From assembly GCA_002402995.1 (NCBI GenBank), contig DHGX01000001.1:85625-149624 (forward strand): a DNA stretch of 64,000 bases. The letters are read 5' to 3'. The notes under the pieces were generated by a model, which was not told where the DNA came from, made no database searches, and saw nothing but the letters and a program-made list of their open reading frames with translations. Origin of the DNA: Patescibacteria group bacterium UBA4787. Its GTDB lineage: Bacteria; Patescibacteriota; Patescibacteriia; UBA2591; UBA4787. Positions 2,278 to 50,363 of the stretch are shown piece by piece (the stretch's first letter is position 1; the number at the start of each line of letters is the position of its first letter). Position numbers and translations under genes: made by a program.

Positions 2278-2640
2278 TTGTTTATCCAGGTTTCAATATC
2301 GTTGCGCCATACCGGTTCTAATATTATCTTCGCTAAATTTTATATCAAATTAAATACTCTACATTTCCTCAAACAGGTTTTAATATCGTCCTATCCGGAG
2401 AGCCAAGCGGGATTTGCAGAGCCGAAAGCTCCGCTTTTCTCTTTGTTAGAGCCTATCTGGGCAGGTTCTAACCGTCCAATCTTTTGTTTTATTGTAAGAA
2501 AAATTGAAAGCCACTCCGCTGTTTTTTATACCGCCACCGGACGCGACGAGATATTCAATTTATTTATAAACGTAAATATTACTGATAAAGATGTGCGTAA
2601 ATTACATAATAAAGAAGTTAAAGAATTAAAAAAATTATGA
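2278..2640 (+). CDS. Hypothetical protein (weak call)
   Basis: ORF only; no recognisable motifs and no clear RBS. Confidence 0.2.
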   Translation: MFIQVSISLRHTGSNIIFAKFYIKLNTLHFLKQVLISSYPESQAGFAEPKAPLFSLLEPIWAGSNRPIFCFIVRKIESHSAVFYTATGRDEIFNLFINVNITDKDVRKLHNKEVKELKKL

Positions 2641-3107
2641 ATAATACACTCAAACTCATCGTCGCCATCGTAGTTTCTGAGCTGGCCGGTATTATCGGCT
2701 CGGTATTTACGACTCCGTCCATTGCCGGCTGGTACGCAGGACTGGTTAAGCCTGCCCTAAATCCGCCGGCATGGGTGTTTGGTCCGGTCTGGACGACGTT
2801 ATTCGTTCTTATGGGCATCGCGGCATTCCTGATCTGGAAGAAAGGATTGGATCGTAGGGATATTAAGATAGCTCTCGGTATATTTCTCGGTCAGCTAGTT
2901 TTAAACACGCTTTGGTCGATTATCTTTTTCGGCTTGCATTCTCCGGGCGGTGCGTTCATTGAGATTATATTCCTCTGGCTTGCCATCCTCGCTACGATCG
3001 CTACTTTCGCAAGAATTTCTAAACCGGCTGCATGGCTTTTGGTGCCCTACGTTCTTTGGGTGAGTTTCGCCTCGTATTTAAACTTTGCCATCTGGTCGTT
3101 GAATTAA
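2637..3107 (+). CDS. tspO: TspO/MBR family tryptophan-rich sensory protein
   Basis: Five-TM protein with W-rich TspO signature stretches (WYAGLVKPALNPPAWVFGPVWTTLF and LWSIIFFG). Confidence 0.8.
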   Translation: MNNTLKLIVAIVVSELAGIIGSVFTTPSIAGWYAGLVKPALNPPAWVFGPVWTTLFVLMGIAAFLIWKKGLDRRDIKIALGIFLGQLVLNTLWSIIFFGLHSPGGAFIEIIFLWLAILATIATFARISKPAAWLLVPYVLWVSFASYLNFAIWSLN

Positions 3108-6257: not shown

Positions 6258-6287
6258 TTGACAAAAAGCCTTAATTTTAAGTAAAAT
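6258..6287 (+). promoter_or_regulatory. Sigma70-like promoter (TTGACA, about 18 nt spacer, TAAAAT) upstream of the ARC ATPase gene
   Basis: cTTGACAaaaagccttaattttaagTAAAAT; followed by the GTTCTTTAAA leader motif at about 6333. Confidence 0.5.
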
Positions 6288-6369
6288 TAGATTGTCTTCT
6301 ATTTTAAGACAGAATAAAAATAAAATAGTTCTTTAAATAAAAAATCAAAATGGGAAAGGAGGGTGTAAA

Positions 6370-8094
6370 ATGCCCGAAACCTTGAAACAGCGTCTGCAGA
6401 AGTGGATTCGCGACGAGGGTAGTTCAATCGATAAACTGGTCGAGTTTATTCAGCAGGAAATCAACGCGGTTATCCAGGAAAAGATCAAGCAGGTCGGAGC
6501 TTTAGTCGAGAAACTAAAGAATAGCGAAAATGCGCGACTCGATTTATTTGAGAAGTTCCAGGAACTAGTGAAGCGCTACAAGAATCTGAAAGAGCCGCCT
6601 TCAAGCTATGGCCGTGTTTTAGACAAACAGAGCGAACACGATCGTCTATTAAATCAAGACACTAAAACCGTAACCATTATCACTGCCGAAGGACGGATTA
6701 TGAAGGTTTTAGCCGAATCCGATGAGCTGTATAACAGGTTAAAATTCGGCGACAGCGTAGTAATAAACGCTAACGGCAACATTACGGCCTGCGGCTCGTT
6801 CCTCGGTAATGGTAGAACTGCGACCATCGAAATTGTCCTTGATGCGCGCCGGGCCCTGATCAATACGGGTACGGATCACAAAGAGGAGGTTTATTTGGTC
6901 CCTGGTTTCGCCAGTTTGAAATCTGGTGACGTGGTGGTTTACGATCCGTATTCGCACTTCGTTCTGGAGAAGATTCCGAAGGACGCCAATTTGAGCGAAC
7001 TGGAGCTGGAAAAGGTTCCGAACATTTCTTTGGACGACATCGGCGGTTTGCCGGAACAGAAAAGCACTATTGCTTTTAATATCTTGTCGCCGTTGGTTTA
7101 TCCCGAGATTTTCCAGAAACAGAAGCTCGAAATGTCCAAGGGCGCGATTTTGATCGGCCCTCCGGGCTGCGGCAAGACCATGATGGCCAAAGCGATCGCT
7201 CACGAACTGACGATGCATATGCGGGAAAAGCTCAAGAACCCAACGGCTATGGGCTGCTTCCTTTATGTGCGCGGTCCGGAACTTTCCGCCTGGTTGGTCG
7301 GTATGACCGAGTACAAGCTGCGCGAATTGTTCAAGAAAGCGGTGGAGAAAGCCAAGGAAACTGGTATTCCAACCGTCATTTACATTGACGAGGTGGAATC
7401 TTTTTTGAGGACGCGTGGAACAGGGATCTCTTCTGATGTGAAGGACGATTACGTGACCCAATTTAACTCTTTGGTTGACGGCCTTGACGAGACCGGCGGT
7501 CTGGTGTTTGTGCTGGCAGCCTCTAATCGTCCGGACATGATCGACCCGGCTGTGATGCGCGAAGGCCGACTTGACCTGAAGGTGATGGTCAGCCGTCCGA
7601 CACGCACAGAGCATGCCGAGGACATCCTGCGCAAGTATTTGACTTCGGATCTTTATTTCGACAAGTGTCACGAGAATGACGATAAGACGGTCTTGGTCAA
7701 CGAGTGGATCAAGAAAATCGCCAACTTCATTTTCGCGGACACGGAAGAGACGGAGTTCATGCGAGTGGACTATGTTGACGGCACAAACGAGGTTCTGTAT
7801 TTCCGGCATTTCGTTTCCGGCGCATTACTGAAAGCAATCGTCGATGAGGCGAAGCGCAAAGCTATCCGGCGGGAAATGGAAAAGCGCGGTGACTGTGGCT
7901 TAACGATAGACGACTTCTTGTCGGCTACAACGGAAAAGTTCTGCCAGAATAAACATCTGATTGACAAAGATGCTCTGCGGCAGGAATTCATTCTGCGGCC
8001 GGGCAAGACCGTTGAGAAGGTCATCAGCCTCGTGGAAACCAAGGAGGTGGAGAAGGAGCGCGGTGGTCTGAATGTTGACAGTGATGCTGTGTAA
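6370..8094 (+). CDS. arc: Proteasome-associated AAA+ ATPase (ARC/Mpa-type)
   Basis: N-terminal coiled coil, a middle OB-like region, and a AAA module with Walker A GPPGCGKT, Walker B IYIDEVE and a second region of homology. It lies adjacent to pup, dop and prcBA genes. The C-terminus ends ...DSDAV and has no GQYL/HbYX motif. Confidence 0.8.
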   Translation: MPETLKQRLQKWIRDEGSSIDKLVEFIQQEINAVIQEKIKQVGALVEKLKNSENARLDLFEKFQELVKRYKNLKEPPSSYGRVLDKQSEHDRLLNQDTKTVTIITAEGRIMKVLAESDELYNRLKFGDSVVINANGNITACGSFLGNGRTATIEIVLDARRALINTGTDHKEEVYLVPGFASLKSGDVVVYDPYSHFVLEKIPKDANLSELELEKVPNISLDDIGGLPEQKSTIAFNILSPLVYPEIFQKQKLEMSKGAILIGPPGCGKTMMAKAIAHELTMHMREKLKNPTAMGCFLYVRGPELSAWLVGMTEYKLRELFKKAVEKAKETGIPTVIYIDEVESFLRTRGTGISSDVKDDYVTQFNSLVDGLDETGGLVFVLAASNRPDMIDPAVMREGRLDLKVMVSRPTRTEHAEDILRKYLTSDLYFDKCHENDDKTVLVNEWIKKIANFIFADTEETEFMRVDYVDGTNEVLYFRHFVSGALLKAIVDEAKRKAIRREMEKRGDCGLTIDDFLSATTEKFCQNKHLIDKDALRQEFILRPGKTVEKVISLVETKEVEKERGGLNVDSDAV

Positions 8095-8102
8095 ATCAAT
8101 CC

Positions 8103-8136
8103 AGAGGGGAGCTCAAGCTTCCCTCTTTTATTTATT
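8103..8136 (+). terminator. Rho-independent terminator after arc
   Basis: agaggggagctcaagcttccctc hairpin followed by TTTTATTTATTT. Confidence 0.6.
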
Positions 8137-8216
8137 TAATTAATTTTTTATTGACCAATGCACCTCGGCTTATTTTATCAAAAATAACGACTGTTGATAA
8201 AAACTTCTAAATGGGG

Positions 8217-8246
8217 TTGACAAATTGGGTTTTTTACAACTATAAT
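8217..8246 (+). promoter_or_regulatory. Promoter (TTGACA, 18 nt spacer, TATAAT) upstream of the dop-like gene
   Basis: gTTGACAaattgggttttttacaacTATAAT; leader motif CGTTCTTTAAA at 8269-8279; strong SD AAAGGGGG before the ATG at 8298. Confidence 0.6.
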
Positions 8247-8297
8247 TAAGTATTAAAAAATTAAATATCGTTCTTTAAAAAGAAAGGGGGTAACTCA

Positions 8298-9869
8298 ATG
8301 AGAATCCCAAAAGTTTTTGGCATAGAAACCGAATGGTCTGTTCGTGTTCGAACGCGCAATAGCGTCAGGTTAGCTAACGCCAAAGAATTCGGCGTATTAA
8401 TAAAATTTATACGCGAATTTTTTACTTTGACCAACACCAGACAAGATTCCCAATGGGAGGCTTGTTCGGTTGATGCTGACCGCGAGTTAGAGCAAGAAAT
8501 AGATCTGCGGCATATCGAGAGTGTTGGTTATCTACCGAACGGCGCTCGTTTATATGTCGACTGGCCGCATTTGGAATATTCAACGCCCGAATGTCAGACG
8601 ATTCGTGATTTAATCGCCGCTGACCAAGCTGGCAATTGGCTGCTTAATATGGCCGCCAAAAAAGCCAGTCAACTCTTGAAAAGAGAGATTATAATTATCA
8701 AAGATAATTCCGATCGCAAAGGCGTTTCTTATGCCAGCCACGAGAATTATTCTTTGCAGCCCAGAACATTTAAGGCCATGATCGACCGACAGAACAGCGA
8801 AGCTCGCGATTTGATTTTGCCGTTTTTGGTAACGCGTCAAATTTTGGCCGGAGCCGGCAAAGTTGGTTCCGAAGCTAATAATTTGAGATCTGCAGATTAC
8901 GGCGAAACAAATTTTCAGATTTCGCAACGCGCAGATTTTATCAATGAAATTATCGGTATCGCCACTACGTCGCCGCGCAATCTGATCAACAGGCGCGATG
9001 AACCACATGCTGATTCTGATCTCTGCCGGCGATTGCATGTTATTATTGGTGATGCCAATTTCTGCGATTGGTCTTATTTTTTGCGCGTTGGAACCTACGC
9101 TCTGGTTTTGCGCATGCTGGAAGATTGCTTTATCGGCAATTCGCCAGTTTGTGTCGACAACCACTGGCTCGAAGCGCTTTATCAGACCTCGCGAGATTTG
9201 ACATGCAAGAAGAAGTTGCAGATTGGCACGGCTAGTCAATCACAGATGAATCCGATCGAGATTCAGCGTTGGTATCTTGGCTTAGTCAAGGAATATCTTG
9301 CCGAGTTTAAAGGCAGCGCCGAAGATCATGAGGTTTGTGAAAAATGGGAATATGTTTTAAACGCTCTGGACAACGACCCGAACCAATTGTTCGGCGTCTT
9401 GGACTGGGTAACAAAGAAATGTATTCTTGATCAATATCTTCAACACCAAGGCTTGCTTTGGCAGGATTCTCGGCTCCGTGTAATCGACATAGCTTACCAC
9501 AATATTAGCGATGAGGCTGGTCTTTATTATCAATTTTTAAAAAAAGGGAAAATCCAGAAATTGATTAATAACGAGTTGTTAATGGATAGGGTTCATAATC
9601 CTCCCGTTGACACACGCGCCTATTTGCGCGGAAAGATCGCTCGGCTTTATCCTGAGTTTGTGGAAGATTGGGAGATAATTTCCAATCGCATGCCAAGTAG
9701 ATTTCGTAAGGAACAGTTGGATTCGTTAAGGGTTATCCTAGAAGAAAAACACATTATTACTTTGGGTAACCCGGTTTTAACGCGAGAAGAGAGCGAAGAA
9801 ATTTTCAAACAAATTATTAATCTTTTGAAATCATGGAAAGGAGGAAGCGAAGATGTTAACACGACTTGA
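8298..9869 (+). CDS. dop: Pup ligase/deamidase family protein, Dop-like (candidate Pup deamidase/depupylase)
   Basis: FGIETEW start motif and NGARLYVD.P..EYSTPEC. SHENYS, LPFLVTRQILAGAGKV, INRRDEPHAD, RRLHVIIGDAN and NPPVDTRAYLRG are all PafA/Dop signatures. It has the longest insertion of the three paralogs between GIETE and NGARLY and a C-terminal extension, which is Dop-like. Confidence 0.75.
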   Translation: MRIPKVFGIETEWSVRVRTRNSVRLANAKEFGVLIKFIREFFTLTNTRQDSQWEACSVDADRELEQEIDLRHIESVGYLPNGARLYVDWPHLEYSTPECQTIRDLIAADQAGNWLLNMAAKKASQLLKREIIIIKDNSDRKGVSYASHENYSLQPRTFKAMIDRQNSEARDLILPFLVTRQILAGAGKVGSEANNLRSADYGETNFQISQRADFINEIIGIATTSPRNLINRRDEPHADSDLCRRLHVIIGDANFCDWSYFLRVGTYALVLRMLEDCFIGNSPVCVDNHWLEALYQTSRDLTCKKKLQIGTASQSQMNPIEIQRWYLGLVKEYLAEFKGSAEDHEVCEKWEYVLNALDNDPNQLFGVLDWVTKKCILDQYLQHQGLLWQDSRLRVIDIAYHNISDEAGLYYQFLKKGKIQKLINNELLMDRVHNPPVDTRAYLRGKIARLYPEFVEDWEIISNRMPSRFRKEQLDSLRVILEEKHIITLGNPVLTREESEEIFKQIINLLKSWKGGSEDVNTT

Positions 9870-10602
9870 GTTGACTTGGCGATTAATGGATGAGCTAATC
9901 GCTCAATTCCTGAAATTGCCGAGCGCGATAGGACAGAGCGACTTTAAACTGGAAGAGTATTTACAGCAATCCCATCTTCACGGTACCACCGTCCTCGCTC
10001 TGAAATATCAGGGTGGAGTGCTGTTAGGTGGAGACGGTCGGGCTTCCGGCATGGATTTCCGTATTTTTACGGACAAAACTCCGAAGGTTTATCCGGTTTC
10101 CGAGTCGACTGCTTACGGTCTTTCTGGGGACGCTCATCTGGGTATTGAGGTGGGAAAGATCTTGGCTTTGACGCTTAAGAATTACGAGAAGAAAGAGTTT
10201 CGAGCCATGAGTTTTGTCGCTCAAACCAAGATGTTGGCTAAAATGATCGAGCGTTTACTGCCAATGGCTATGCAGGGCCGTATCGTGATGCCGATTTTCG
10301 TGTCATGTCAGGAAATCTGCACGATTTATCCGAATGGCATGGTGGTAAGGGGAGATGAAGGTTATGGTGGAATTGGTTCGGGTAGTCCTCACGCCATTCA
10401 TCGCATCAAGGCTCGTTTGGCTGATAACCCCAATCCAGATAAAACCAGGGCGATAGAAATTATACTCGAAGCTTTTGCGGAAGCTCATAAGAGTGATGCC
10501 GCAACCGGCTCTAATTTGCTGATTTATAGTCTGGAAGAGTCGGGAATCGCTATCGTTCGCAACGATGTCGGAAACGGACCGTTTTCGATGAACCTGTTGT
10601 AA
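9853..10602 (+). CDS. prcB: 20S proteasome beta subunit (PrcB) with propeptide
   Basis: The propeptide is followed by the active-site HG/TTVLALKYQGGVLLGGDGR, which matches the mycobacterial TTIVALKYPGGVVMAGDRR. The GIGSGS and AATGS motifs are present. The start overlaps the dop end by 17 nt and is preceded by GGAAAGGAGG. Confidence 0.85.
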   Translation: MLTRLELTWRLMDELIAQFLKLPSAIGQSDFKLEEYLQQSHLHGTTVLALKYQGGVLLGGDGRASGMDFRIFTDKTPKVYPVSESTAYGLSGDAHLGIEVGKILALTLKNYEKKEFRAMSFVAQTKMLAKMIERLLPMAMQGRIVMPIFVSCQEICTIYPNGMVVRGDEGYGGIGSGSPHAIHRIKARLADNPNPDKTRAIEIILEAFAEAHKSDAATGSNLLIYSLEESGIAIVRNDVGNGPFSMNLL

Positions 10603-10617
10603 TCGTGAGGTGAAATA

Positions 10618-11322
10618 ATGGCTGATAAATTGGATCTCATTGCCAACGACAAAGATAATGCCTTGCCGGTTATCGCAGTCAGCACCAAAGACGGCATACT
10701 TCTTGTCGCAATTAATTTTTCCATTAGTCCGGAGGATTCCGATACCTACATCCACAAACTTTCAGAGATCCATGACAATATCGGCATGGGCGCTTGTGGC
10801 AATAGCAGCGAGTATGATCCGCTGCGCAGGCAGTTTATCGACGTCGTTGATAGGCTTGCCTACGAGTTGTCCAAGGACGATATTGTCTTGAAGAGTCTGG
10901 CCAATAGTTTGGCCGGAGAGTTGCGCGATGTATATCGCAATCCCCGTCTGGTTCCTCGTGTGGTCTTCTTCGTCTTGGTGGAATGTCAGGAAGATTCGAA
11001 GCGGGATCGTTTCGTCCGGATCGGTCTCGACGGCAAGTTCAAGATCTTTAATAATTTCACGGTGATCGGCGGCAACGACAAAGAGGTTGGCGCTCTAATG
11101 GATAACCTCAGGTCCGTCGAATTTTTGGAGATGGACTGGCCGACCGCTTTAACCGCGATCAAGGAAGCGATAAAGAAAACCAACATCGCCCGGATCGCTG
11201 GCGCAAAGAAATCGGACAAGACCGTCGAACCGTTCCCATCCCTGGAGCTGGCAATTCTCTGGCGTGGAAGAACTGGCAGAAAATGGCAGCTTTTGCCGCA
11301 TCAAATTAAGGAGGTGAAATAA
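10618..11322 (+). CDS. prcA: 20S proteasome alpha subunit (PrcA)
   Basis: VIAVSTKDGILLVA, KLSEIHDNIGMGACGNSSEYDPLRR and VIGGNDKE align with PrcA segments. It follows prcB. Confidence 0.75.
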   Translation: MADKLDLIANDKDNALPVIAVSTKDGILLVAINFSISPEDSDTYIHKLSEIHDNIGMGACGNSSEYDPLRRQFIDVVDRLAYELSKDDIVLKSLANSLAGELRDVYRNPRLVPRVVFFVLVECQEDSKRDRFVRIGLDGKFKIFNNFTVIGGNDKEVGALMDNLRSVEFLEMDWPTALTAIKEAIKKTNIARIAGAKKSDKTVEPFPSLELAILWRGRTGRKWQLLPHQIKEVK

Positions 11323-11323
11323 A

Positions 11324-11527
11324 ATGCTTAAAAAGCAGTTTCTATTCTTAACCCCAGACGAGCAAGAAAAAAAGGAGACTGAAAAACATCCTCTGGGGCC
11401 CAAGCCCGGCGGACCTGGCTCCGGTAAGAAGGCAGACAAAAATGATGATAACATCGATGACATCCTTGATGACATCATCGAACGGAATAAGCGGGTTAAT
11501 GAAACTGACGAGCGAGAGGGTCAGTAA
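11324..11527 (+). CDS. pup: Prokaryotic ubiquitin-like protein Pup (67 aa, C-terminal -EGQ)
   Basis: Small acidic, disordered protein whose C-terminal half DDNIDDILDDIIERNKRVNETDEREGQ resembles the Pup helix plus the terminal G-Q. Strong SD AAGGAGGTG. Located between prcA and a pafA-like gene. Confidence 0.6.
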   Translation: MLKKQFLFLTPDEQEKKETEKHPLGPKPGGPGSGKKADKNDDNIDDILDDIIERNKRVNETDEREGQ

Positions 11528-11535
11528 TATTTAAT

Positions 11536-11568
11536 CCCCGCACTTTAAAATAGTGCGGGGATTTTTTT
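11536..11568 (+). terminator. Rho-independent terminator after pup
   Basis: ccccgcactttaaaatagtgcgggg hairpin followed by ATTTTTTTAT. Confidence 0.7.
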
Positions 11569-11673
11569 ATAATCGCAATGAGCGAGGCAGCAGAAATTTT
11601 ATTTTTAGATTGCCGGACAGGTCAGATTATATATTGAAGAGAGGCATAGTTCTCCTCTTCTTCTATTTTAATT

Positions 11674-11708
11674 TGACAAATCATCAAAAAAAGATAAGAT
11701 TTATATAA
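11674..11708 (+). promoter_or_regulatory. Promoter (TTGACAAAT-type) upstream of pafA-like paralog 2
   Basis: tTTGACAaatcatcaaaaaaagaTAAGATttatataag; GTTCCTTAAAA leader variant at about 11725. Confidence 0.45.
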
Positions 11709-11755
11709 GAAAAATAATAATGTTGTTCCTTAAAATTATTCAAGGAGAGAATAAA

Positions 11756-13285
11756 ATGAAGAAGAGAATTATTGGGATAGAGAATGAATATCGGATTCAG
11801 GCTCTGCCCGGATTCGATAAAAGCAGATACAAGGTTTATTTTCGGGGATTGAAAATAAGCTTGAATCAGTTTCTATCCAACGGAGCGAGGTTTTATTTGG
11901 ATTTTCCGAGCGAACTGCCGGAGTATTGCACGCCGGAAGTTACGACCATCCGTGAAGTTCTGGCGCATGAACGCGCCGGAGATTATATTGTCTGGGAGAG
12001 CCTGAAAGACATGATGGAAATTTTTAGGCGGAATACCAGTCAGCCAGGTCTCTTTTACAAATATCTGGCAAGTGGTTGTCATGAGAACTATCTTTTTTAT
12101 CTTGATGAAGCTATCAAGTCAACTGCGAATATCTACCCGCAGATGAGCGGCCACATCTTGGCAAGATTGGTGGCTTTTTTGGGGCCCTTCTTGGTCTCTC
12201 GACAGATTTTTTGCGGCGCTGGTTGGTGGTTAACAAATGAAGATGGGCGAAGTTATTTTAATATTTCGCAGCGCGCCCATTTTATGAAGCGTGATTACGG
12301 CGGAGACACGATGCAGAATAGGGCGATTATCAATTCTCGGAATGAATCATTGTGTTCGTCGAGCAATTATTCTCGTCTTCATCTCATTGTTGGCGACTCC
12401 AATATGAGCGATCTCTCTGGTTTTCTCAAGCTCGGCACCACGTCTATCGTTTTAAGGATGATCGAAGCAGGCTTCTTTGATCCACAAGACATTGTTCTAG
12501 TTGATCCGGTTGCGGCTATCGCTGTCATTTCCGATGATTTGAGCTGTAAGGCGACTGTCCAGGCCGGCGGTTTGCATCGTTCGCTTTCAGCCATTGACAT
12601 CCAAGAGTGGTATCTTAATAAAGCTCGTGAATTTTTTGAATGTCGAGAAGTATCCGAAGAGGAGAAGGAGGTTATAAAATATTGGCAGGAAGTTTTGGAC
12701 AAACTGCGCCGAGACCCCATGCTTCTCAAAGAGGAGATCGACTGGGTGATCAAATATAATTTGATTTGCCGTTATGCTGAAAAACACGGTGTTGATCTCG
12801 ATCATTGTTCGGACGAGGAGAGTGAAGCGCTGAGAGTCATTGACACTCATTATCATTCTCTAAATCCGGAGAGAGGTTTGTACCACAAGCTTCTCGGCGC
12901 TGGGAAGATCGCCAAGCTTATTAGTGATAAAGAGGTGGCTTTGGCAATAAAATCTCCACCGACTGATACGCGAGCCAAAGTCCGTGGTGACTTCATTTCT
13001 TTCATCCTGAAAAATCATGCGGATTTGGTTAGGTATTTCATCGTCAATTGGGACGCTATTCGTTATAATTATCGTGCTAATGGATTTTCTAGGCTGATCC
13101 ACGAATTTCAACCTAATCAAGACGATGAATCGGTGAAAGCCTGTGTTTTCAATCTCGGCGATCCGTTTCTTTCAACAGAAACTTGCAACAACTTCCAAGT
13201 ATTGGTTGAAGAGATTGAGTCTCACCAAGAATTTTTCAAATCTATGATACCAACTCCGTCTCCTGACCATCGCGATTATGAATAG
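11756..13285 (+). CDS. pafA: Pup ligase family protein, PafA-like (paralog 2)
   Basis: IGIENEY, NGARFYLDFP.ELPEYCTPE, GCHENYL, RLHLIVGDSNMSD, LKLGTTSIVLRMIE, EIDWVIKYNL, PPTDTRAKVRG. Start chosen at MKKRII with SD AAGGAGAG. The GIENE-to-NGARFY spacing is short, which is PafA-like. Confidence 0.8.
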   Translation: MKKRIIGIENEYRIQALPGFDKSRYKVYFRGLKISLNQFLSNGARFYLDFPSELPEYCTPEVTTIREVLAHERAGDYIVWESLKDMMEIFRRNTSQPGLFYKYLASGCHENYLFYLDEAIKSTANIYPQMSGHILARLVAFLGPFLVSRQIFCGAGWWLTNEDGRSYFNISQRAHFMKRDYGGDTMQNRAIINSRNESLCSSSNYSRLHLIVGDSNMSDLSGFLKLGTTSIVLRMIEAGFFDPQDIVLVDPVAAIAVISDDLSCKATVQAGGLHRSLSAIDIQEWYLNKAREFFECREVSEEEKEVIKYWQEVLDKLRRDPMLLKEEIDWVIKYNLICRYAEKHGVDLDHCSDEESEALRVIDTHYHSLNPERGLYHKLLGAGKIAKLISDKEVALAIKSPPTDTRAKVRGDFISFILKNHADLVRYFIVNWDAIRYNYRANGFSRLIHEFQPNQDDESVKACVFNLGDPFLSTETCNNFQVLVEEIESHQEFFKSMIPTPSPDHRDYE

Positions 13286-13326
13286 TCCCGTTCTGGCTGA
13301 TTGAAATCCCCATTTTATTTTTATTA

Positions 13327-13356
13327 ACGCTCCTAAATAATTAGGAGCGTTTTAAA
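13327..13356 (+). terminator. Terminator after pafA-like paralog 2
   Basis: gctcctaaataattaggagcg hairpin followed by TTTTAAATTT. Confidence 0.55.
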
Positions 13357-13357
13357 T

Positions 13358-13386
13358 TTGACAAATTATCAAAAAACGCTAAGCTT
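13358..13386 (+). promoter_or_regulatory. Promoter (TTGACAAAT-type) upstream of pafA-like paralog 3
   Basis: tTTGACAaattatcaaaaaacgcTAAGCT; CGTTCTTTACAAAGAAGGG leader nearly identical to the dop leader. Confidence 0.45.
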
Positions 13387-13430
13387 TAAATAATAAAATT
13401 AAAATCGTTCTTTACAAAGAAGGGAATAAA

Positions 13431-14900
13431 ATGCAAAAACGCATTTATGGTTTGGAGACTGAGTATAGGTGGTGGAGTTCCTTGCCGGAGAAAAACCCCG
13501 ATAATCCGAGTCAGGTTTTTTCCGGATATCATTTGAATACTATAGTCAATTACTATCCGGGTAATTATTCTGGCTTTTTGCCAAACGGCGCTAGGTTTTA
13601 TGTGGACATGGTTCGGTTTCCAGAGTTCTCAACTCCGGAATGTGCGAGTGTTAGAGATGCCGTGATTTGGGATAAGGCAGGGGAAAAAATAGTTTTCGAT
13701 TGTTTGGGCGGCGCTGTTGTCATCCGAAAAAGAAATTTAGGCAGCAACGGAAAAGTACAGGGTTGCCACGAGAATTATTTGATCGATCGCCAGGTCTTAT
13801 TGAAAGATCGCGACATCTCTCTCGGTCATGTCCATTTGGTCGAACGAGACTTTAATTATTTGGCCGATCGTCTAATTCCTTTTTTGGTGACGCGCCAGGT
13901 TTTCTGCGGCACCGGCGCCATTATGGAGTTCCCACAAATTCAGATAGGGGAAAATCCTTCAACTCAGTGTTTATATCGCTATGTCATTTCACAGCGAGCT
14001 TTCAGAATCGAGCATTTAATCCACGCCGAGACTACTAATAATCGGCCGATCATTAACATGCGCAATGAGCCTCTGTGCGGTGGCGACGAGAGATATTTCC
14101 GCCTGCATCTGATTCTGGGTGATTCTAATCTTTCAGAGTTTTCGACTTTCTTGAAATTGGGTACTACTGGCATAATCTTGCGGATGATTGAGGCTGATTT
14201 TTTAGACACAACCAGTATTGCTCTGCTTGATCCATTAGCAGCTCTTCGGCAAGTCGCGATAGATCCGACTTGCAAAAAAAGGCTAGACTTGGTTGATCAA
14301 CGTCAGTTTTCAGCTATCGACATTCAACAGTGGTATCTCGACAAAGCCAATAAGTTCTTCCAGCGCAACGAAGCTTCAGAAGAGGAAAAAGAAGTGATTG
14401 AGCGTTGGCAAGAAACGTTGGACAAACTGCGCCGAGACCCCATGCTTCTCAAAGAGGAGATCGACTGGGTGATCAAGCTCAACGCTTTGATAAGATATTG
14501 CGAATCTCGCAATTTATCTTTTGACAGCGAAGAAGCAAGGCGTCTTGACGTGGCTTATCATGATCTTGATCCGGATAATTCTCTCTACTTAAAACTTCTT
14601 AAACGTGGTCGCGTCAAGAGGTTAGTTGCCGAGGAAGAGATCGAGAACGCCATTGTTAATCCGCCCGATACGCGCGCCAAAATTAGAGGTTCTGTTATAC
14701 TGGCAATCAACGATTATATTAATCGTTCGTCTATTGGCCGTGATCGCGGCATCTTAATAAACTGGGATTTGGTTTCTGTGTATGCTTCTACGATTCCTCC
14801 TACCACTACTTCTGATAAGATAATAACACTAAGCGATCCTTTCGCGGTGGAAAATTCGGAAATCCAGGCTCTAGTCAACCAATTAAATGCTACACTTTAA
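13431..14900 (+). CDS. pafA: Pup ligase family protein, PafA-like (paralog 3)
   Basis: YGLETEY, NGARFYVD...FPEFSTPEC, GCHENYL, LIPFLVTRQVFCGTGA, RLHLILGDSNLSE, LKLGTTGIILRMIE, EIDWVIKLNAL and PPDTRAKIRG. Confidence 0.8.
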   Translation: MQKRIYGLETEYRWWSSLPEKNPDNPSQVFSGYHLNTIVNYYPGNYSGFLPNGARFYVDMVRFPEFSTPECASVRDAVIWDKAGEKIVFDCLGGAVVIRKRNLGSNGKVQGCHENYLIDRQVLLKDRDISLGHVHLVERDFNYLADRLIPFLVTRQVFCGTGAIMEFPQIQIGENPSTQCLYRYVISQRAFRIEHLIHAETTNNRPIINMRNEPLCGGDERYFRLHLILGDSNLSEFSTFLKLGTTGIILRMIEADFLDTTSIALLDPLAALRQVAIDPTCKKRLDLVDQRQFSAIDIQQWYLDKANKFFQRNEASEEEKEVIERWQETLDKLRRDPMLLKEEIDWVIKLNALIRYCESRNLSFDSEEARRLDVAYHDLDPDNSLYLKLLKRGRVKRLVAEEEIENAIVNPPDTRAKIRGSVILAINDYINRSSIGRDRGILINWDLVSVYASTIPPTTTSDKIITLSDPFAVENSEIQALVNQLNATL

Positions 14901-14934
14901 CCCCTACTATAAAACAGTAGGGGTTTTTATTTTA
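14901..14934 (+). terminator. Rho-independent terminator after paralog 3
   Basis: cccctactataaaacagtagggg followed by TTTTTATTTT. Confidence 0.7.
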
Positions 14935-15041: not shown

Positions 15042-16415
15042 ATGGAAATGTCAATTATTGAGGCGATTGAGCAAATTTGCTTAGAGAAAAGTCTTTCCAA
15101 AGAAAAAGTTTTAGAAGCAATTGAACAGGCTTTAGCTGCTGCTTATCGCAAAGACTTTGGAGAAAAAAACCAAAATATAAAAGTTGAGTTCAATCCGGTG
15201 AACGGAGCGATGAAAATCTTCGACATAAAAACGGTTGTCGAAGATTCTTTATTGGAAGAATTTCAGAAAGAGATGGAAGAAGGCGAATCTGAAGAAGCGC
15301 CCAGTTCGGAAATTGCATCTGAAGGAGAAAAAGAGAAGAAGCGTTTTAATCCTAGAACAGACATCGCCTTAACTGAAGCGCGCAGAATTAAAAAAAGCAT
15401 GAAACAGGGAGATGAAATAAAAATAGAGCTGTCTTTACCTGAGGATTTCGGACGCGTGGCTGCGCAAACCGCCAAGCAAGTTATTATTCAGAGATTGCGA
15501 GAAGCCGAGCGGCAGAATATTTTTGACACATTTAAAGATCAGGAAGGTAAGGTTCTTAACGGGGTTATCCAGCGTCGAGAAAACAATAATTTATTTGTCG
15601 TTGACTTGAACGGTACGGCAGCGGTTTTGCCTCCGTCTGAACAGGTGCGCGAAGAGAAATATTATCCTGGGCAGAAATTAAGATTTTATATCGCAACGGT
15701 AAATATGACGCCACGCGGTCCGGAGATTATAACATCTCGTCGACACAGCGAAATCGTGAAAGAACTTTTCCGTTTGGAAATACCGGAAATTAACAGTGGC
15801 GTCGTAGAGATAAAAGGCATCGCCCGCGAGGCTGGTTTACGTAGTAAGGTGGCAGTTATTAGCAATGACGAAAATATTGACCCGATTGGTTCTTGTATTG
15901 GGCAAAAAGGCGTTCGCATTCAAACAATTATTAACGAATTAAACGGCGAAAAAATAGATATTATCGAATACTCGGAAGACGCAGCTAAATTTATCGGCAA
16001 TGCTCTATCTCCGGCCAAGGTTACCTCGGTTGTTTTAAATGAACAAGAAAAAAAGACTATTGTTTCTGTTAAAGAAAATCAATTTTCTTTAGCTATCGGT
16101 CGTGATGGCCAGAATGTCCGCTTGGCAGCCCGTTTAACTGGTTGGGCTATTGAAGTTGTTAAAGATGGCGAAACGTTTGGCGAAGGCGTAAGCGCCAATC
16201 AAGAAGGAGAATTACAGGGTGGAGAAACCGGCGAACCGATAACAGAAATTGAAGCTGAACAACTCGGTGAAGAGGAAAAAACCAAAGAAGAATCTGTTCC
16301 GGAATTAGTCGAAGAATTAAAAGAAGAAATGTCTTCAGAAACGATAGGCGGAGAAATAGTGGCCGGCGCTGGCGAAGAGGTTGTTGAAGAAACCCCCGGA
16401 AAATTAGAAGAATAA
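15042..16415 (+). CDS. nusA: Transcription termination/antitermination factor NusA with acidic C-terminal tail
   Basis: N-terminal NusA domain (EAIEQICLEKSLSKEKVLEAIEQAL), S1 (GKVLNGVIQRRENNNLFVVDL), tandem KH (IGSCIGQKGVRIQ and AIGRDGQNVRLAARLTGW) and a Glu-rich tail. Confidence 0.85.
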   Translation: MEMSIIEAIEQICLEKSLSKEKVLEAIEQALAAAYRKDFGEKNQNIKVEFNPVNGAMKIFDIKTVVEDSLLEEFQKEMEEGESEEAPSSEIASEGEKEKKRFNPRTDIALTEARRIKKSMKQGDEIKIELSLPEDFGRVAAQTAKQVIIQRLREAERQNIFDTFKDQEGKVLNGVIQRRENNNLFVVDLNGTAAVLPPSEQVREEKYYPGQKLRFYIATVNMTPRGPEIITSRRHSEIVKELFRLEIPEINSGVVEIKGIAREAGLRSKVAVISNDENIDPIGSCIGQKGVRIQTIINELNGEKIDIIEYSEDAAKFIGNALSPAKVTSVVLNEQEKKTIVSVKENQFSLAIGRDGQNVRLAARLTGWAIEVVKDGETFGEGVSANQEGELQGGETGEPITEIEAEQLGEEEKTKEESVPELVEELKEEMSSETIGGEIVAGAGEEVVEETPGKLEE

Positions 16416-28934: not shown

Positions 28935-29654
28935 ATGAGCAAGACAATCTTCTCGGTCGGCTTTGTACTGGTGTTTTTGGTAGGCCTTAGTTTCGCCCAA
29001 GCCGACCTTGATTCTACTACAACGGTTATCTCAGATCCTTCTTTAATTATGGACGACACAGAGAAGGAAATAGCCCATCGGAAATATCAGAGCTGGGACG
29101 AGATCTTTCGTTTAGGAAAGGCCCAGAAATCCTGTCGCGATTCTGGCGTTAATATCCCCGAGGAATATATTGCCTATACTCGCTACAAGATTGAGCAACT
29201 TTTCAGCGACTCAAGCAACTTTGTTTTCAACGAGAAGGAACTCAATTATATTGTTCAGCAAAAGTTGAGTGAGAAAGCAGGCAATCCGTCAGCCGAAAGC
29301 GTGAAAGTTTTTCTAAGAGACGGCCTAATCAAGGCGAGCGGGACGTTGCTGTCGCCTTTTCGCGCTTCAGTAGTTGTTATGATCAAATCAACGATCGATG
29401 ACAGCACCCACGACGCGAGACTAAAGGTAGTTTCTATGAAAATAAAACGCAAGAGCTTCTTCTCTAAATTCCTTCCTGTACCTCGTCCCATCGTCAATAA
29501 TTTAGCCAACCGCGACCTGAAGAAAATACTTGCTTTTATGCGCGAATATGGCTATCAGATGAAAATCGTCATAACGCCATCAGCTATTCGATTGCTCGGC
29601 CACAAGATAGAGCCGACAATATCGACAACGGCTAGTTTCAAAAACAAGAGGTGA
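28935..29654 (+). CDS. Hypothetical secreted protein
   Basis: Signal peptide MSKTIFSVGFVLVFLVGLSFAQA and SD AGGAGCC; no recognised domain. Confidence 0.4.
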   Translation: MSKTIFSVGFVLVFLVGLSFAQADLDSTTTVISDPSLIMDDTEKEIAHRKYQSWDEIFRLGKAQKSCRDSGVNIPEEYIAYTRYKIEQLFSDSSNFVFNEKELNYIVQQKLSEKAGNPSAESVKVFLRDGLIKASGTLLSPFRASVVVMIKSTIDDSTHDARLKVVSMKIKRKSFFSKFLPVPRPIVNNLANRDLKKILAFMREYGYQMKIVITPSAIRLLGHKIEPTISTTASFKNKR

Positions 29655-38850: not shown

Positions 38851-39660
38851 ATGAGTAAAGTCATCGGCGCAGACGCGGCCAAATTGGCTGGTTTGCAGAT
38901 CGACACGCTCCAGAAAGCGCGTGACGGCCAGATCACCCTCGAACACTGGGAATGGTTTAATAAGTTAACGAAAACAGAGCGCGATCGGCTTTGCAGAGAC
39001 GGCCATGTCGATACCAGAAGTCAGGCCAGACAAACTATCGAAGCCGTAAATAAAGTGGTATCATCTGCCCAAGAAAGATGGGCCGCTTTTGATGACCTCT
39101 TCGATCGCCAGATTCAAACCCTGCGCGACCGGGGCTGTCCCAGCCAGGTATTGGCCATGCTCATCAGTCAGAAACCCCAGGTGCTGGCCAAAGCTTCGAC
39201 CATGACCTTCAAGGAAGGTCGCATCCCGTTCCTGTCAATCATCCCGTTCTCTGCACTCAATCTCTCGACCCAGATGTCCATGGTCAGAAATGGAAACCAG
39301 TCCGGCATCAGCTGTCTCGACACCAACGAGATCAAGGACATCGTCTCCACGCCTGTCCAGCCCTATTTCATCTTTGACGTGGAAGACGGCGAAGGCATGT
39401 TGGGCCGGTCCGTTCTGAAAGCCACTGAACTCATCAAGAGCCAGAACCGTTCCCCCTTAACCGCTGCCGAGGTCATCAGTCTCGGCATCCAGGCCAAGGC
39501 GCTGTCCAAGCGCTACGTGGACGCCGCTGGCTCCCGCTACAGGAACGACGACCGCGCCCCGTTTCTGTGCCTCGACGTCAGTCGGCCGGGACTCGGCTGG
39601 AACGGCGTCGACAGCTCGTTCAGCGAGTGTGGCTCGGCATCGTGCGGTAGTCGGTCCTAG
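38851..39660 (+). CDS. Hypothetical protein (GC-rich, probably horizontally acquired)
   Basis: 269-aa ORF with clearly higher GC than flanking genes, a good SD and its own terminator; no recognised domain. Confidence 0.5.
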   Translation: MSKVIGADAAKLAGLQIDTLQKARDGQITLEHWEWFNKLTKTERDRLCRDGHVDTRSQARQTIEAVNKVVSSAQERWAAFDDLFDRQIQTLRDRGCPSQVLAMLISQKPQVLAKASTMTFKEGRIPFLSIIPFSALNLSTQMSMVRNGNQSGISCLDTNEIKDIVSTPVQPYFIFDVEDGEGMLGRSVLKATELIKSQNRSPLTAAEVISLGIQAKALSKRYVDAAGSRYRNDDRAPFLCLDVSRPGLGWNGVDSSFSECGSASCGSRS

Positions 39661-47541: not shown

Positions 47542-47670
47542 AGTATTGTTAATTTATATAGCCAAGTTCTTTAAAAATTTATTTTTTAGTTCAAACCACT
47601 ACAAAAATTCTTAAATTTTTTGTAGTTGCAAATTTTGAGTTTTGTAAATTTTTAGTATCAAATTTTTGTT

Positions 47671-49193
<1,523 letters not shown>

Positions 49194-50156: not shown

Positions 50157-50201
50157 ATGGTTGATAATCTTGATTTATAAATAATTTATGAAATTAAAAA
50201 A

Positions 50202-50273: not shown

Positions 50274-50363
50274 AAATAAATATGTATTTTGTTAATGGGC
50301 ATTTAGTCCACCAGCTGGTGGAGAACCCTAGTCCTCTTCCGCCTGCCCCGTTAAATTTCTGAA

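What the first reader, a model, noticed from the sequence alone, without database searches (positions are those of the whole stretch)
6258..14934. A complete Pup-proteasome system on a GC-elevated island in an AT-rich, CPR-like genome
The seven consecutive plus-strand genes are an ARC/Mpa AAA ATPase, a Dop-like gene, prcB, prcA, a pup-like gene and two pafA-like genes. The coding GC here is obviously higher than in the flanking yraN, nusA and dcw genes; compare the GC-rich runs at 7080-7600 with the 30-35% GC stretches in ftsW. To my knowledge pupylation plus a 20S proteasome is characteristic of Actinobacteria and a few other phyla, not of ultra-small AT-rich genomes with this gene style. The order arc-dop-prcB-prcA-pup-pafA-pafA also differs from the classic actinobacterial arc...dop-pup-prcB-prcA...pafA arrangement. 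The island carries host-style TTGACAAA promoters and leader motifs, which argues for long residence after acquisition.
Basis: partly seen in the sequence, partly recalled or inferred. Interest (0 to 1): 0.9.

Follow-up and report, generated by a model that had tools for sequence, protein, structure and literature searches.

The report
Divergent Pup-proteasome cluster in a CPR bacterium
A tiny-genome groundwater bacterium (Patescibacteria/CPR) carries a complete, intact but strongly divergent version of the actinobacterial "tag-and-destroy" Pup-proteasome system, inherited vertically within a small CPR clade, with a rearranged gene order, an unrecognisable tag protein and extra tandem copies of the tagging enzyme.

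Summary
Seven plus-strand genes at 6370-14900 encode an Mpa/ARC ATPase, a Dop-type enzyme with a Dop-loop, 20S beta and alpha subunits, a 67-aa tag candidate ending in EGQ, and two loop-less PafA-like paralogs. They form four predicted promoter/terminator units that use the host's TTGACAAA promoter.

It is not a chimera. Logan assemblies of two other sequencing runs match the window exactly across the left junction. At least six divergent Patescibacteria lineages (Dop 40-47% identical) keep the order arc-dop-prcB-prcA-small ORF-ligase, often between the same ubiE/yraN and nusA flanks. CPR Dop-type and ligase-type proteins each form a 100%-bootstrap clade. The cluster is therefore old and vertically inherited. 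The GC3 excess (0.51 vs 0.38) is real but confined to the window's lineage, so it is not a mark of foreign origin.

Differences from canonical systems:
- pup lies after prcA.
- The tag matches no Pup model.
- ARC lacks the GQYL/Tyr tail.
- The DEPHAD motif is degraded in the ligase paralogs.
- The ligase is tandemly amplified (three copies in close relatives, two here) and shares a gene-conversion tract.

Calling pl2 and pl3 ligases is an inference. Verdict: a new variant of a known kind, moderately high interest.

The parts
6258..6287 (+). promoter-like site for arc (TTGACA-18-TAAAAT, extended TTGACAAA); GTTCTTTAAA leader motif at 6328
6370..8094 (+). Mpa/ARC-type proteasomal AAA ATPase, 574 aa. 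Walker A GPPGCGKT. The C-terminus ...DSDAV has no GQYL/HbYX tyrosine.
8103..8126 (+). terminator-like hairpin after arc
8217..8246 (+). perfect sigma-70-like promoter (TTGACA-18-TATAAT) for the dop-prcB-prcA-pup unit; leader motif at 8270
8298..9869 (+). pl1, a Dop-type deamidase/depupylase, 523 aa. GhExE-to-NGxR spacing is 73 residues (Dop-loop present, with the conserved Trp53). It has the VD-x-x-H-x-EYSTPE and RDEPHAD motifs.
9853..10602 (+). prcB, 20S beta subunit with a 44-aa propeptide, Thr1 at HG|TT, Asp17 and GSGS. It overlaps dop by 17 nt.
10618..11322 (+). prcA, 20S alpha subunit (TIGR03691, 79 bits)
11324..11527 (+). Pup-like tag candidate, 67 aa, with a strong RBS and a start 2 nt after the prcA stop. 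It has an acidic DNIDDILDDII helix about 20 residues before the C-terminal EGQ. dN/dS is 0.27 against L009.
11533..11563 (+). strong terminator-like hairpin (12 bp stem, T-run) ending the dop-pup unit
11673..11700 (+). promoter-like site (TTGACAAA...TAAGAT) for pl2
11756..13285 (+). pl2, loop-less PafA-like paralog 'A', 509 aa from the RBS-preceded ATG at 11756 (the ORF opens at 11720). It is 81% identical to paralog A of L009/L010.
12575..12753 (+). gene-conversion tract shared with pl3 (14298-14476), 77% identical over 179 nt and including an exact 59-nt run at 12695-12753. The same tract is 92-95% identical among the three paralogs of L009.
13326..13351 (+). terminator-like hairpin after pl2, followed by TTGACAAA at 13358 (promoter for pl3)
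13431..14900 (+). pl3, loop-less PafA-like paralog 'C', 489 aa. It aligns end to end with TIGR03686 PafA and is 85-87% identical to paralog C of L009/L010.
14899..14925 (+). terminator-like hairpin closing the cluster, before nusA (15042-16415)

Best explanation
This is a functional, vertically inherited but strongly divergent Pup-proteasome system (PPS) of a small clade of Patescibacteria. It lies between the housekeeping genes ubiE/yraN and nusA.

Inferred mechanism:
1. The 67-aa disordered tag is made with a C-terminal Gln.
2. The Dop-type enzyme pl1 (Dop-loop present) deamidates that Gln to Glu. It can also remove the tag.
3. One or both loop-less PafA-like paralogs (pl2, pl3) phosphorylate the gamma-carboxylate of the terminal Glu and ligate it to lysines of target proteins.
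4. The hexameric ARC/Mpa ATPase captures the tag on its N-terminal coiled coil, unfolds the substrate and feeds it into the 20S core (PrcA7-PrcB7-PrcB7-PrcA7, Thr1 nucleophile).

The genes form four host-type transcription units: arc | dop-prcB-prcA-pup | pl2 | pl3.

In the window's lineage the single ancestral ligase gene was tandemly amplified into paralogs A, B and C. B has been lost from this genome. A block of about 60 aa is homogenised among the copies by gene conversion.

Shown here: gene identities, intact catalytic motifs, purifying selection, synteny, and monophyly of the CPR clades.

Inferred only: that the small ORF is the tag, which paralog ligates, and how ARC docks on the 20S core without a GQYL tail.
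For: Family matches:
- The pl1 and pl3 models (pLDDT 87.6 and 84.7) superpose on Dop and PafA crystal structures with TM about 0.8.

Dop versus ligase:
- Upstream CPR paralogs have a GhExE-to-NGxR spacing of 72-76 residues, as in named Dop (73-80).
- Downstream paralogs have 35-45, as in PafA (43-45).
[quoted passage not shown] Its conserved Trp is invariant in the CPR upstream proteins.

Phylogeny (neighbour-joining, 355 columns, 100 bootstraps):
- CPR-upstream clade 100, nested among Dop.
- CPR-downstream clade 100.
- Downstream clade grouping with canonical PafA: 65.
- Paralogs A/B/C as one clade 94; A+B 100.

Tag candidate:
- In eight lineages a 50-69-aa ORF directly follows prcA.
- Seven end in [EQ]G[QE] and one in ENE. 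All have an acidic DEIDxI-like helix 17-20 residues upstream, at about the same distance from the C-terminus as DEIDDV in Mtb Pup.

Selection (window against L009): dN/dS is 0.09 (arc), 0.11 (dop), 0.27 (pup), 0.08 (pl2) and 0.14 (pl3), compared with 0.09 for nusA.

Synteny and assembly:
- The ubiE-(yraN)-arc-dop-prcB-prcA-small ORF-ligase-nusA arrangement appears, in parts, in L004/L013+L014, L007, L008, L012, L017/L018, L009, L010 and L020.
- L001 and L002 show 0 mismatches over 12.7 kb and 9.6 kb.

Transcription: predicted promoter/terminator units and host-wide TTGACAAA plus GTTCTTTAAA motifs.
Against: - The tag candidate has no detectable sequence homology to Pup. It gives no Pfam or NCBIfam hit at E=10 and nothing in the PDB at E<=10. 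hhalign against Mtb Pup gives 4% probability. An exhaustive profile search of 1.84 billion proteins finds only five CPR proteins.
- The tag candidate is far more basic than Pup (K+R 11-19 against 5-7).
- ARC lacks the C-terminal GQYL/penultimate Tyr that docks Mpa on the alpha ring (PMC8223512). A Poribacteria control ends in GGTYL.
- pl2 and pl3 are not clearly PafA. All scores are below the equivalog cut-offs, and Dop and PafA models score about equally.
- pl3 matches Acidothermus Dop better than Corynebacterium PafA, in sequence (259 vs 213 bits) and in fold (TMq 0.81 vs 0.79).
- The residues that separate Dop from PafA in Actinobacteria (PMC7947786) are mixed in pl2 and pl3, for example xTPE instead of ATAE.
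- The normally invariant RDEPHAD motif is degraded: RNEPLCG in pl3, RNESLCS in pl2.
- There are no expression or protein data.
Confidence: 0.75

Rival explanations
1. Recently acquired genomic island: the GC-rich block was imported lately from a higher-GC donor, such as an actinobacterium or another Pup-bearing phylum.
For: GC3 is 0.51 against 0.38 for the rest of the window (p about 3e-4). The same excess appears in the sister strain L009 (0.515 vs 0.346). Other isolated GC3-rich genes in the window hint at a mosaic genome.
Against: - Orthologous clusters occupy the same ubiE/yraN-nusA slot in lineages whose Dop is only 40-47% identical. Those clusters have host-like GC3: 0.314/0.315, 0.39/0.38, 0.29/0.25 and 0.36/0.32.
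- The CPR Dop-type and ligase-type proteins are each monophyletic at 100%.
- The best non-CPR relatives are at most 42% identical.
- There is no integrase, transposase or tRNA at the borders.
- The promoters and leader motifs are host-type.
- A within-clade replacement of the locus by a higher-GC CPR relative is not excluded.
Confidence: 0.1
2. Assembly or binning artefact: an actinobacterial or other contaminant fragment has been joined to a CPR contig.
For: None beyond the compositional contrast. One public relative is labelled 'Gammaproteobacteria' and another 'Saccharibacteria', which shows that bin labels are unreliable.
Against: - Logan unitig assemblies of two other runs (SRR5324156, SRR1313282) are 100% identical to the window across PAP2-PCMT-ubiE-yraN-arc-dop-prcBA-pup-pl2.
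- Five further assemblies show ligase-nusA contiguity.
- A single-cell genome (AH-259-L07) carries the cluster with the same flanks.
Confidence: 0.02
3. A proteasome with a different or reduced tagging chemistry. Either the small ORF is not a conjugated tag, or the loop-less paralogs are extra depupylases or amidases derived from Dop within the CPR clade rather than PafA orthologues. Ligation, if it happens at all, would then have evolved independently.
For: - The tag has no homology to Pup.
- One lineage's small ORF ends in ENE, without the penultimate Gly.
- pl3 resembles Dop more than PafA in sequence and fold.
- Paralogs A and B keep the Dop-like Gly of the alpha-loop, and L9_A even reads GLETT as Dop does.
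- 22% of neighbour-joining bootstraps join the CPR-downstream clade to the CPR-upstream clade.
Against: - 65% of bootstraps place the downstream clade with canonical PafA.
- The downstream proteins align end to end with the PafA model and lack the Dop-loop.
- Lineages with one Dop-type and one loop-less gene (L005/L015, L017) mirror the canonical Dop+PafA pair.
- The terminal Q/E is conserved in all eight small ORFs.
- Catalytic Asp, GhExE, HENY, the R193 equivalent and RLHxIxGD are retained.
Confidence: 0.13

Closest known systems
Actinobacterial Pup-proteasome system (Mycobacterium, Rhodococcus, Acidothermus: Mpa/ARC, Dop, Pup, PrcB, PrcA, PafA)
   Same: The component list is the same. Closest solved structures are Mtb Mpa, Rhodococcus and Mtb PrcB, Acidothermus Dop and Corynebacterium PafA. 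The Dop-loop with its conserved Trp is present, as are Thr1 with a propeptide and a tag ending in Gln or Glu.
   Different: - The order is arc-dop-prcB-prcA-pup-pafA, not arc-dop-pup-prcB-prcA...pafA. The canonical order is described as 'rigidly conserved' (PMC3511204).
- The tag matches no Pup model, ends in a single Gly ([EQ]G[QE], not GG[QE]) and is lysine-rich.
- ARC ends in hydrophobic V/I residues without GQYL.
- Every protein scores below the NCBIfam equivalog cut-offs.
[quoted passage not shown]
- No pafBC lies next to the ligase genes: pl3 is followed directly by nusA.
Non-actinobacterial Pup/UBact clusters (Nitrospirota, Poribacteria, KSB3 and others)
   Same: These are sporadic occurrences of a full Mpa-Dop-tag-PrcB-PrcA-PafA cluster outside Actinobacteria, in Gram-negative or candidate phyla (PMC7947786). 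Poribacteria and KSB3 Dop are among the nearest named relatives of pl1, at 37-38% identity.
   Different: The Poribacteria control locus L023 keeps the canonical order. Its tag is recognised by Pfam Pup and ends in ...QRGGQ, and its ARC ends in ...GGTYL. From memory only (Lehmann et al. 2017, BBRC; not held in the library): UBact tags end in R[TS]G[EQ] and lie between dop and prcB, and that paper lists some Parcubacteria-type candidate phyla among the carriers. The CPR tag here fits neither the UBact C-terminus nor its position.
Duplicated pupylation loci (Leptospirillum with two full systems; partial duplications in Saccharopolyspora and Salinispora)
   Same: Duplication of PPS parts is already known (PMC3511204). 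The single-cell genome AH-259-L07 has a second dop'-prcB'-prcA'-ligase set.
   Different: Here only the ligase is amplified. It forms a head-to-tail array in which each copy has its own terminator and promoter, and a tract of about 200 nt is kept 92-95% identical by gene conversion while the rest of the proteins are 45-53% identical.

Membership tests
Pup-proteasome system (PPS) | Mpa/ARC-type AAA ATPase (coiled coil, OB domains, AAA module) | tested here: met
   TIGR03689 scores 367 bits over residues 31-533, below the 505-bit cut-off. Pfam AAA and Prot_ATP_ID_OB_C match. The best PDB hit is Mtb Mpa at 288 bits, covering residues 77-550.
Pup-proteasome system (PPS) | C-terminal GQYL/HbYX-like proteasome-docking motif with a penultimate aromatic residue on the ATPase | tested here: not met
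   The window's ARC ends in ...DSDAV. CPR orthologues end in TVI, GVV, RVI, GII and GLT. The Poribacteria control ends in GGTYL. The motif definition comes from PMC8223512.
Pup-proteasome system (PPS) | Bacterial 20S alpha and beta subunits; beta has a propeptide and catalytic Thr1 | tested here: met
   TIGR03690 scores 107 bits and TIGR03691 79 bits, both below cut-off. HG|TTVLAL aligns with HG|TTIVAL of Rhodococcus beta, and D17 and GSGS are present.
Pup (Pfam PF05639 / TIGR03687) | Sequence match to the Pup family model | tested here: not met
   No hit at E=10 in Pfam or NCBIfam. The profile of CPR small proteins finds nothing in the PDB. hhalign against Mtb Pup gives 4% probability. The profile search of 1.84 billion proteins returns only CPR members.
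Pup (functional definition) | Small disordered protein encoded in the cluster, with a C-terminal Gln/Glu preceded by Gly and a helix-forming acidic segment about 20 residues upstream | tested here: met
   Eight lineages carry a 50-69-aa ORF. Seven end in [EQ]G[QE] and one in ENE. The DEIDxI-like motif lies 17-20 residues from the end, against 18 in Mtb Pup. There is a single Gly, not GG.
Dop (TIGR03688) | Pup_ligase fold plus a Dop-loop insertion before strand beta2, with a conserved Trp | tested here: met
   pl1 has a spacing of 73 residues, against 73-80 in named Dop. W53 is invariant in the CPR set. pl1 has the VD..H.EYSTPE, RDEPHAD and G220 alpha-loop motifs and sits nested among Dop in the tree. 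The HMM score of 335 bits is below the 492-bit cut-off.
PafA (TIGR03686) | Pup_ligase fold without a Dop-loop, with an intact carboxylate-amine ligase active site | tested here: met
   pl2 and pl3 have spacings of 35 and 45 residues. GhExE, NGARxYxD, CHENY, PFLV(S/T)RQ, SQRA, the R193 equivalent and RLHLIxGD are present. pl3 aligns with the PafA model over 1-456 of 457 positions.
PafA (TIGR03686) | Equivalog-level score and the residues uniquely conserved in PafA (Hecht et al. 2020): the L-D-V-G-S insertion, ATAE, the HxWEGxSSATTRS alpha-loop, and D418 | tested here: not met
   Scores are 277 and 315 bits against a cut-off of 551, and the Dop model scores about the same. An insertion after the catalytic Asp is present, but the residues differ (DMVRF / DFPSEL). 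pl2 and pl3 have CTPE/STPE, not ATAE. The alpha-loop is mixed, there is Asn at the D418 position, and DEPHAD is degraded.
PafA versus Dop activity | Alpha-loop conformation: helix in PafA, loop in Dop | tested here: inconclusive
   AlphaFold models of pl1 and pl3 give the same turn-strand-loop pattern in this region. Foldseek ranks Dop slightly above PafA for both models.
Canonical PPS locus | Gene order arc-dop-pup-prcB-prcA-(...)-pafA | tested here: not met
   dop overlaps prcB by 17 nt, which leaves no room for a gene between them. The tag gene follows prcA in all CPR loci. The canonical order is seen in the Poribacteria control.
UBact-type system | Tag ending in R[TS]G[EQ], encoded between dop and prcB (definition recalled from Lehmann et al. 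2017; not verifiable here) | tested here: not met
   CPR tags end in E/Q-G-Q/E preceded by acidic or basic residues (REGQ, KQGE, KEGQ, QEGQ). None has an Arg-Thr/Ser-Gly ending. The position is after prcA.

The most novel reading that the evidence does not exclude
The loop-less enzymes of this CPR clade are not orthologues of actinobacterial PafA. Instead they arose within the clade from a Dop-like ancestor, giving an independent hydrolase-to-ligase (or ligase-to-hydrolase) transition. Their later amplification into 2-3 paralogs, which keep one homogenised block while the rest diverges, would create a small set of 'E3-like' Pup ligases with partitioned substrate ranges. That would be the first multi-ligase pupylation system, working with an orphan tag family and a GQYL-less ATPase-20S interface.
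Probability: 0.2. Interest if true: 0.8.

Novelty: new variant of a known kind. Interest (0 to 1): 0.62.

Why it matters
**Distribution.** Reviews describe bacterial proteasomes and pupylation as largely restricted to Actinobacteria, with sporadic cases elsewhere (PMC8223512, PMC3511204, PMC7947786). None of my full-text searches linked them to CPR/Patescibacteria.

**Cost to a small genome.** The cluster spans about 8.6 kb, plus paralog expansion, and is under purifying selection. An organism with a minimal genome is unlikely to keep it unless it matters. Amino-acid recycling or regulated turnover in an episymbiont that cannot make its own amino acids is a plausible role, but this is inference.

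**Value for specialists.** The clade is a natural experiment on three open points:
1. What separates ligase from depupylase. Here the actinobacterial discriminator residues are scrambled.
2. How Mpa docks on the 20S core. Here there is no GQYL.
3. How one ligase handles hundreds of substrates. Here the ligase is multiplied.

**Annotation.** Pipelines call the tag 'hypothetical protein' and all three enzymes 'PafA2 family'. Systems of this type are therefore invisible to routine surveys.

Tried and rejected
- **HMM assignment of the 67-aa ORF to Pup or UBact.** Pfam and NCBIfam at E=10, a PDB profile search, hhalign, and an exhaustive profile search all gave nothing.
- **The second small ORF, 11553-11708.** Its translation is low-complexity, it spans the terminator and promoter, and it has no family hit. 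Rejected as a gene.
- **Classifying pl2 and pl3 with the Hecht et al. discriminator residues.** The pattern is mixed and not decisive.
- **AlphaFold alpha-loop conformation and Foldseek ranking, used to separate ligase from depupylase.** Both paralogs look alike and both slightly favour Dop.
- **Chimera of paralogs A and B in the window's pl2.** Rejected, because identity to L9_A is uniform along the whole length.
- **Mapping the conversion tract onto the Pup-binding groove from the literature.** The papers held give no residue list. Left open.
- **Donor identification.** The nearest non-CPR Dop relatives (P0019, P0073) are unlabelled, and one lies in a proteasome-less locus. No donor is named.
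- **Class-level taxonomy of the host.** Public names stop at 'Patescibacteria group bacterium'. Two relatives carry doubtful bin labels.
- **The 464-aa 'Saccharimonadia' PafA2 hit (L011).** GC is 0.57 and the context is TCA-cycle genes, so it is not CPR-like. Set aside.
- **The UBact paper.** It is not held in the library, and the 'UBact' text search was noise.

Full report
**1. What is in the window**

Seven consecutive plus-strand ORFs fill 6370-14900. Matches to Pfam, NCBIfam and solved structures identify them as follows.

| Gene | Coordinates | Evidence |
|---|---|---|
| arc | 6370-8094 | Mpa/ARC-type AAA ATPase. TIGR03689 367 bits; Mtb Mpa 5KWA 288 bits |
| pl1 | 8298-9869 | Pup_ligase family, 393 bits |
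| prcB | 9853-10602 | Bacterial 20S beta. A 44-aa propeptide ends HG\|TT, aligned with Thr1 of Rhodococcus and Mtb PrcB |
| prcA | 10618-11322 | Bacterial 20S alpha |
| small ORF | 11324-11527 | 67 aa, ends ...DEREGQ |
| pl2 | 11756-13285 (ORF opens at 11720; the ATG at 11756 has the RBS) | Pup_ligase family, 355 bits |
| pl3 | 13431-14900 | Pup_ligase family, 375 bits |

Every NCBIfam score is well below the equivalog cut-off. These are remote members of their families.

Consensus scans predict four units: arc | dop-prcB-prcA-small ORF | pl2 | pl3. Each starts with TTGACAAA and ends in a hairpin followed by a T-run. TTGACAAA is enriched in the window (13 copies against 5.05 +/- 2.3 expected). 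It also precedes the 16S rRNA gene and other host genes. It is usually followed 44-70 nt later by a GTTCTTTAAA-like motif, both in the cluster and in host genes.

**2. Composition**

- The seven genes have GC 0.464 and GC3 0.513. The other 51 ORFs have 0.388 and 0.384 (sd 0.08), p about 3e-4.
- The excess is real but not unique. TspO, a DUF5701 gene (GC3 0.71), a ClpP-like gene and others are as GC3-rich.
- The excess is shared by the sister strain L009 (0.515 vs 0.346).
- It is absent or marginal in the orthologous clusters of other CPR lineages: 0.314/0.315, 0.39/0.38, 0.29/0.25 and 0.36/0.32.
- It is therefore a feature of this lineage and not a residue of foreign origin. I have no tested explanation for it.

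**3. Host and assembly**

- Proteins at least 90% identical to pl1 are deposited as 'Patescibacteria group bacterium' MAG proteins from Hainich groundwater.
- The flanks hold dcw genes, yraN, nusA, trigger factor and a 16S gene with no 23S gene next to it.
- Logan assemblies of two other runs are 100% identical to the window over 12.7 kb and 9.6 kb, across the yraN-arc junction. Both stop at 12724, inside a 59-nt exact repeat shared by pl2 and pl3.
- A chimera or contaminant is therefore excluded.

**4. Relatives**

- The nearest homologues of pl1 are only 43-50% identical, and they are few.
- A scan of 185,579 species genomes found five loci. A scan of 241 million metagenome records found three. 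Both used narrow peptide patterns specific to the CPR type.
- All relatives with enough sequence show arc-dop-prcB-prcA-small ORF-ligase.
- ubiE and/or yraN lie upstream in L004/L013, L007, L008, L012 and L017/L018. nusA lies downstream in L014, L017, L009, L010 and L020.
- L017 (GC 0.28) has the whole arrangement ubiE-yraN-arc-dop-prcB-prcA-small ORF-ligase-nusA with a single ligase. I take this as the ancestral state.
- Between the window and the single-cell genome AH-259-L07, host genes are 45-57% identical and cluster genes 30-43%. The cluster has been at this site through deep divergence.
- Between the window and L009, all cluster genes are under purifying selection: dN/dS 0.08-0.27, against 0.09 for nusA.

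**5. Dop or PafA?**

*pl1 and its orthologues are Dop-type.*
- They carry the insertion before strand beta2. The GhExE-to-NGxR spacing is 72-76 residues, against 73-80 in named Dop.
- The conserved Dop-loop Trp is invariant in them.
- The literature treats this loop as present in all Dop and absent from all PafA (PMC8599861).
- They also keep VD..H.EYSTPE, the alpha-loop Gly and RDEPHAD.

*The downstream proteins lack the loop but are not typical PafA.*
- Their spacing is 35-45 residues, against 43-45 in PafA.
- Their active-site residues are intact.

*Tree.* I built a neighbour-joining tree from 355 core columns with 100 bootstraps.

| Grouping | Bootstrap support |
|---|---|
| CPR upstream proteins as one clade (nested among Dop) | 100 |
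| CPR downstream proteins as one clade | 100 |
| Downstream clade with canonical PafA | 65 |
| Downstream clade with CPR upstream clade | 22 |

*Points against a simple PafA assignment for pl2 and pl3.*
- Dop and PafA HMMs score about equally.
- pl3 matches Acidothermus Dop better than Corynebacterium PafA, in sequence and in fold.
- The Dop/PafA discriminator residues of Hecht et al. (PMC7947786) are mixed.
- RDEPHAD is degraded.
- AlphaFold models (pLDDT 84.7 and 87.6) confirm the fold but do not separate the two activities.

So calling pl1 Dop is well supported. Calling pl2 and pl3 ligases is an inference from the missing loop, the tree, and the fact that the pathway needs a ligase.

**6. 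The tag**

- In eight lineages a 50-69-aa ORF directly follows prcA. In the window its start is 2 nt after the prcA stop and it has a strong RBS.
- The eight ORFs end in EGQ (window, L009, L005, L007), QGE (L004), EGE (L008, L012) and ENE (L017).
- All have an acidic DEIDxI-like segment 17-20 residues from the end. This is the position of DEIDDV in Mtb Pup. I verified the Mtb Pup sequence against PDB 7PX9.
- No method detects homology to Pup.
- The proteins are much more basic than Pup.
- A Poribacteria control locus has the canonical order, a Pfam-recognised Pup ending in GGQ, and an ARC ending in GGTYL. This shows that the CPR peculiarities are not general to non-actinobacterial systems.

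**7. ATPase-20S interface**

None of the CPR ARC proteins ends in GQYL or has a penultimate aromatic residue. The tails are DAV, TVI, GVV, RVI, GII and GLT. Docking must work differently or be weak. I could not test this.

**8. Ligase amplification**

- Three close relatives (L009, L010, L020; Dop 93% identical) carry three downstream paralogs: A (509 aa), B (497-498 aa) and C (489 aa).
- The window has only A (pl2, 81% identical) and C (pl3, 85-87% identical).
- A, B and C form a clade (94), and A and B are sisters (100). The A-B split (about 51% identity) is far older than the split between the window and L009. B was therefore lost here, probably by recombination between the repeated terminator-promoter spacers.
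- pl2 is not an A/B chimera.
- A tract of about 197 nt, encoding ...SAIDIQQWYLD...EEKEV..WQETLDKLRQDPMLLKEEIDWVIKLN, is 92-95% identical in DNA among A, B and C of L009. The proteins are otherwise 45-53% identical. In the window the tract is 77% identical with a 59-nt exact core. This is gene conversion. I speculate that it preserves a shared interaction surface, such as the tag groove.
- AH-259-L07 instead carries a second dop'-prcB'-prcA'-ligase set.

**9. Comparison and novelty**

- The literature calls the PPS order 'rigidly conserved' (PMC3511204), PafA 'the sole Pup ligase' (PMC12053664), and the distribution Actinobacteria plus Nitrospirae with sporadic others (PMC7947786).
- No paper held in the library links pupylation to CPR.
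- From memory, the 2017 UBact paper lists some Parcubacteria-type candidate phyla. Occurrence in CPR may therefore already have been noted, but the UBact tag type and its position differ from what is here.
- I rate this as a new variant of a known kind, of moderately high interest. It would be higher if the multi-ligase or independent-origin reading holds.

Noticed in passing
L019:6520-19263 (Logan ERR7850096_670859): The closest non-CPR neighbour of the CPR Dop clade lies in a locus without a proteasome: AAA (689 aa), Pup_ligase, a 55-aa ORF ending ...EIGE, then Pup_ligase fused to HEAT repeats. Immediately after come FHA/Prok-RING, ThiF (E1), UQ_con (E2), YukD (ubiquitin-like) and JAB genes. 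A pupylation-like module therefore sits next to a bacterial E1/E2/deubiquitinase system.
   Followed up: no
window 6258, 8217, 11673, 13358, 28845, 38732, 39832, 47512, 49497, 63668 (+ strand), with 6328, 8270, 11725, 13407, 28892, 47566, 49541: There is a host-wide promoter pattern. Extended -35 TTGACAAA occurs 13 times against 5 expected. In 7 of the 10 plus-strand copies a GTTCTTTAAA-like motif follows 44-70 nt downstream, including upstream of the 16S rRNA gene. The function of the second motif is unknown.
   Followed up: partly
window 2637-3107, 28935-29654, 38851-39660, 53393-54052 (-), 60144-61008: Other isolated GC3-rich genes (0.52-0.71 against 0.38) are scattered through the window: TspO/MBR, two genes with no Pfam match, a DUF5701 protein (GC3 0.71), and a ClpP-like gene with its neighbour. 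The genome is compositionally mosaic.
   Followed up: partly
L014:99-4672 and L013:4913-10730 (single-cell genome AH-259-L07): This genome carries a second dop'-prcB'-prcA'-ligase set directly upstream of nusA, in addition to the full arc-dop-prcB-prcA-tag-ligase set on another contig. The two contigs probably join within a ligase gene.
   Followed up: partly
window 11756-13285 vs L009:8272-9801: pl2 has a much higher synonymous divergence from its orthologue (dS 1.41) than its neighbours do (0.32-0.51), although dN/dS is low (0.08). Possible causes are an old allele or exchange with other paralogs.
   Followed up: no
L017:12659-12811: In the most AT-rich lineage (GC 0.28) the tag candidate ends in ...KENE, without the penultimate Gly that is otherwise invariant.
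   Followed up: no
window 47666-49193: A complete 16S rRNA gene (1435 bits) has no 23S gene next to it. It is followed by a 177-aa ORF and three minus-strand tRNAs (Phe, Val, Ala) at 50201-50574. The rRNA operon is therefore unlinked.
   Followed up: no
L012 and L015 (GTDB species representatives): Two genomes carrying the CPR-type cluster are deposited as 'uncultured Gammaproteobacteria' and 'uncultured Candidatus Saccharibacteria' (binchicken co-assemblies). L012 has the same ubiE flank and low GC as the Patescibacteria loci, so its label looks wrong.
   Followed up: no
L011 (GCA_035481055.1, labelled Candidatus Saccharimonadia): An abundant 464-aa PafA group includes a contig labelled Saccharimonadia. 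That contig has GC 0.57 and carries succinyl-CoA ligase, NDK and dihydroorotate dehydrogenase genes, which is atypical for CPR. It is probably mis-binned.
   Followed up: no
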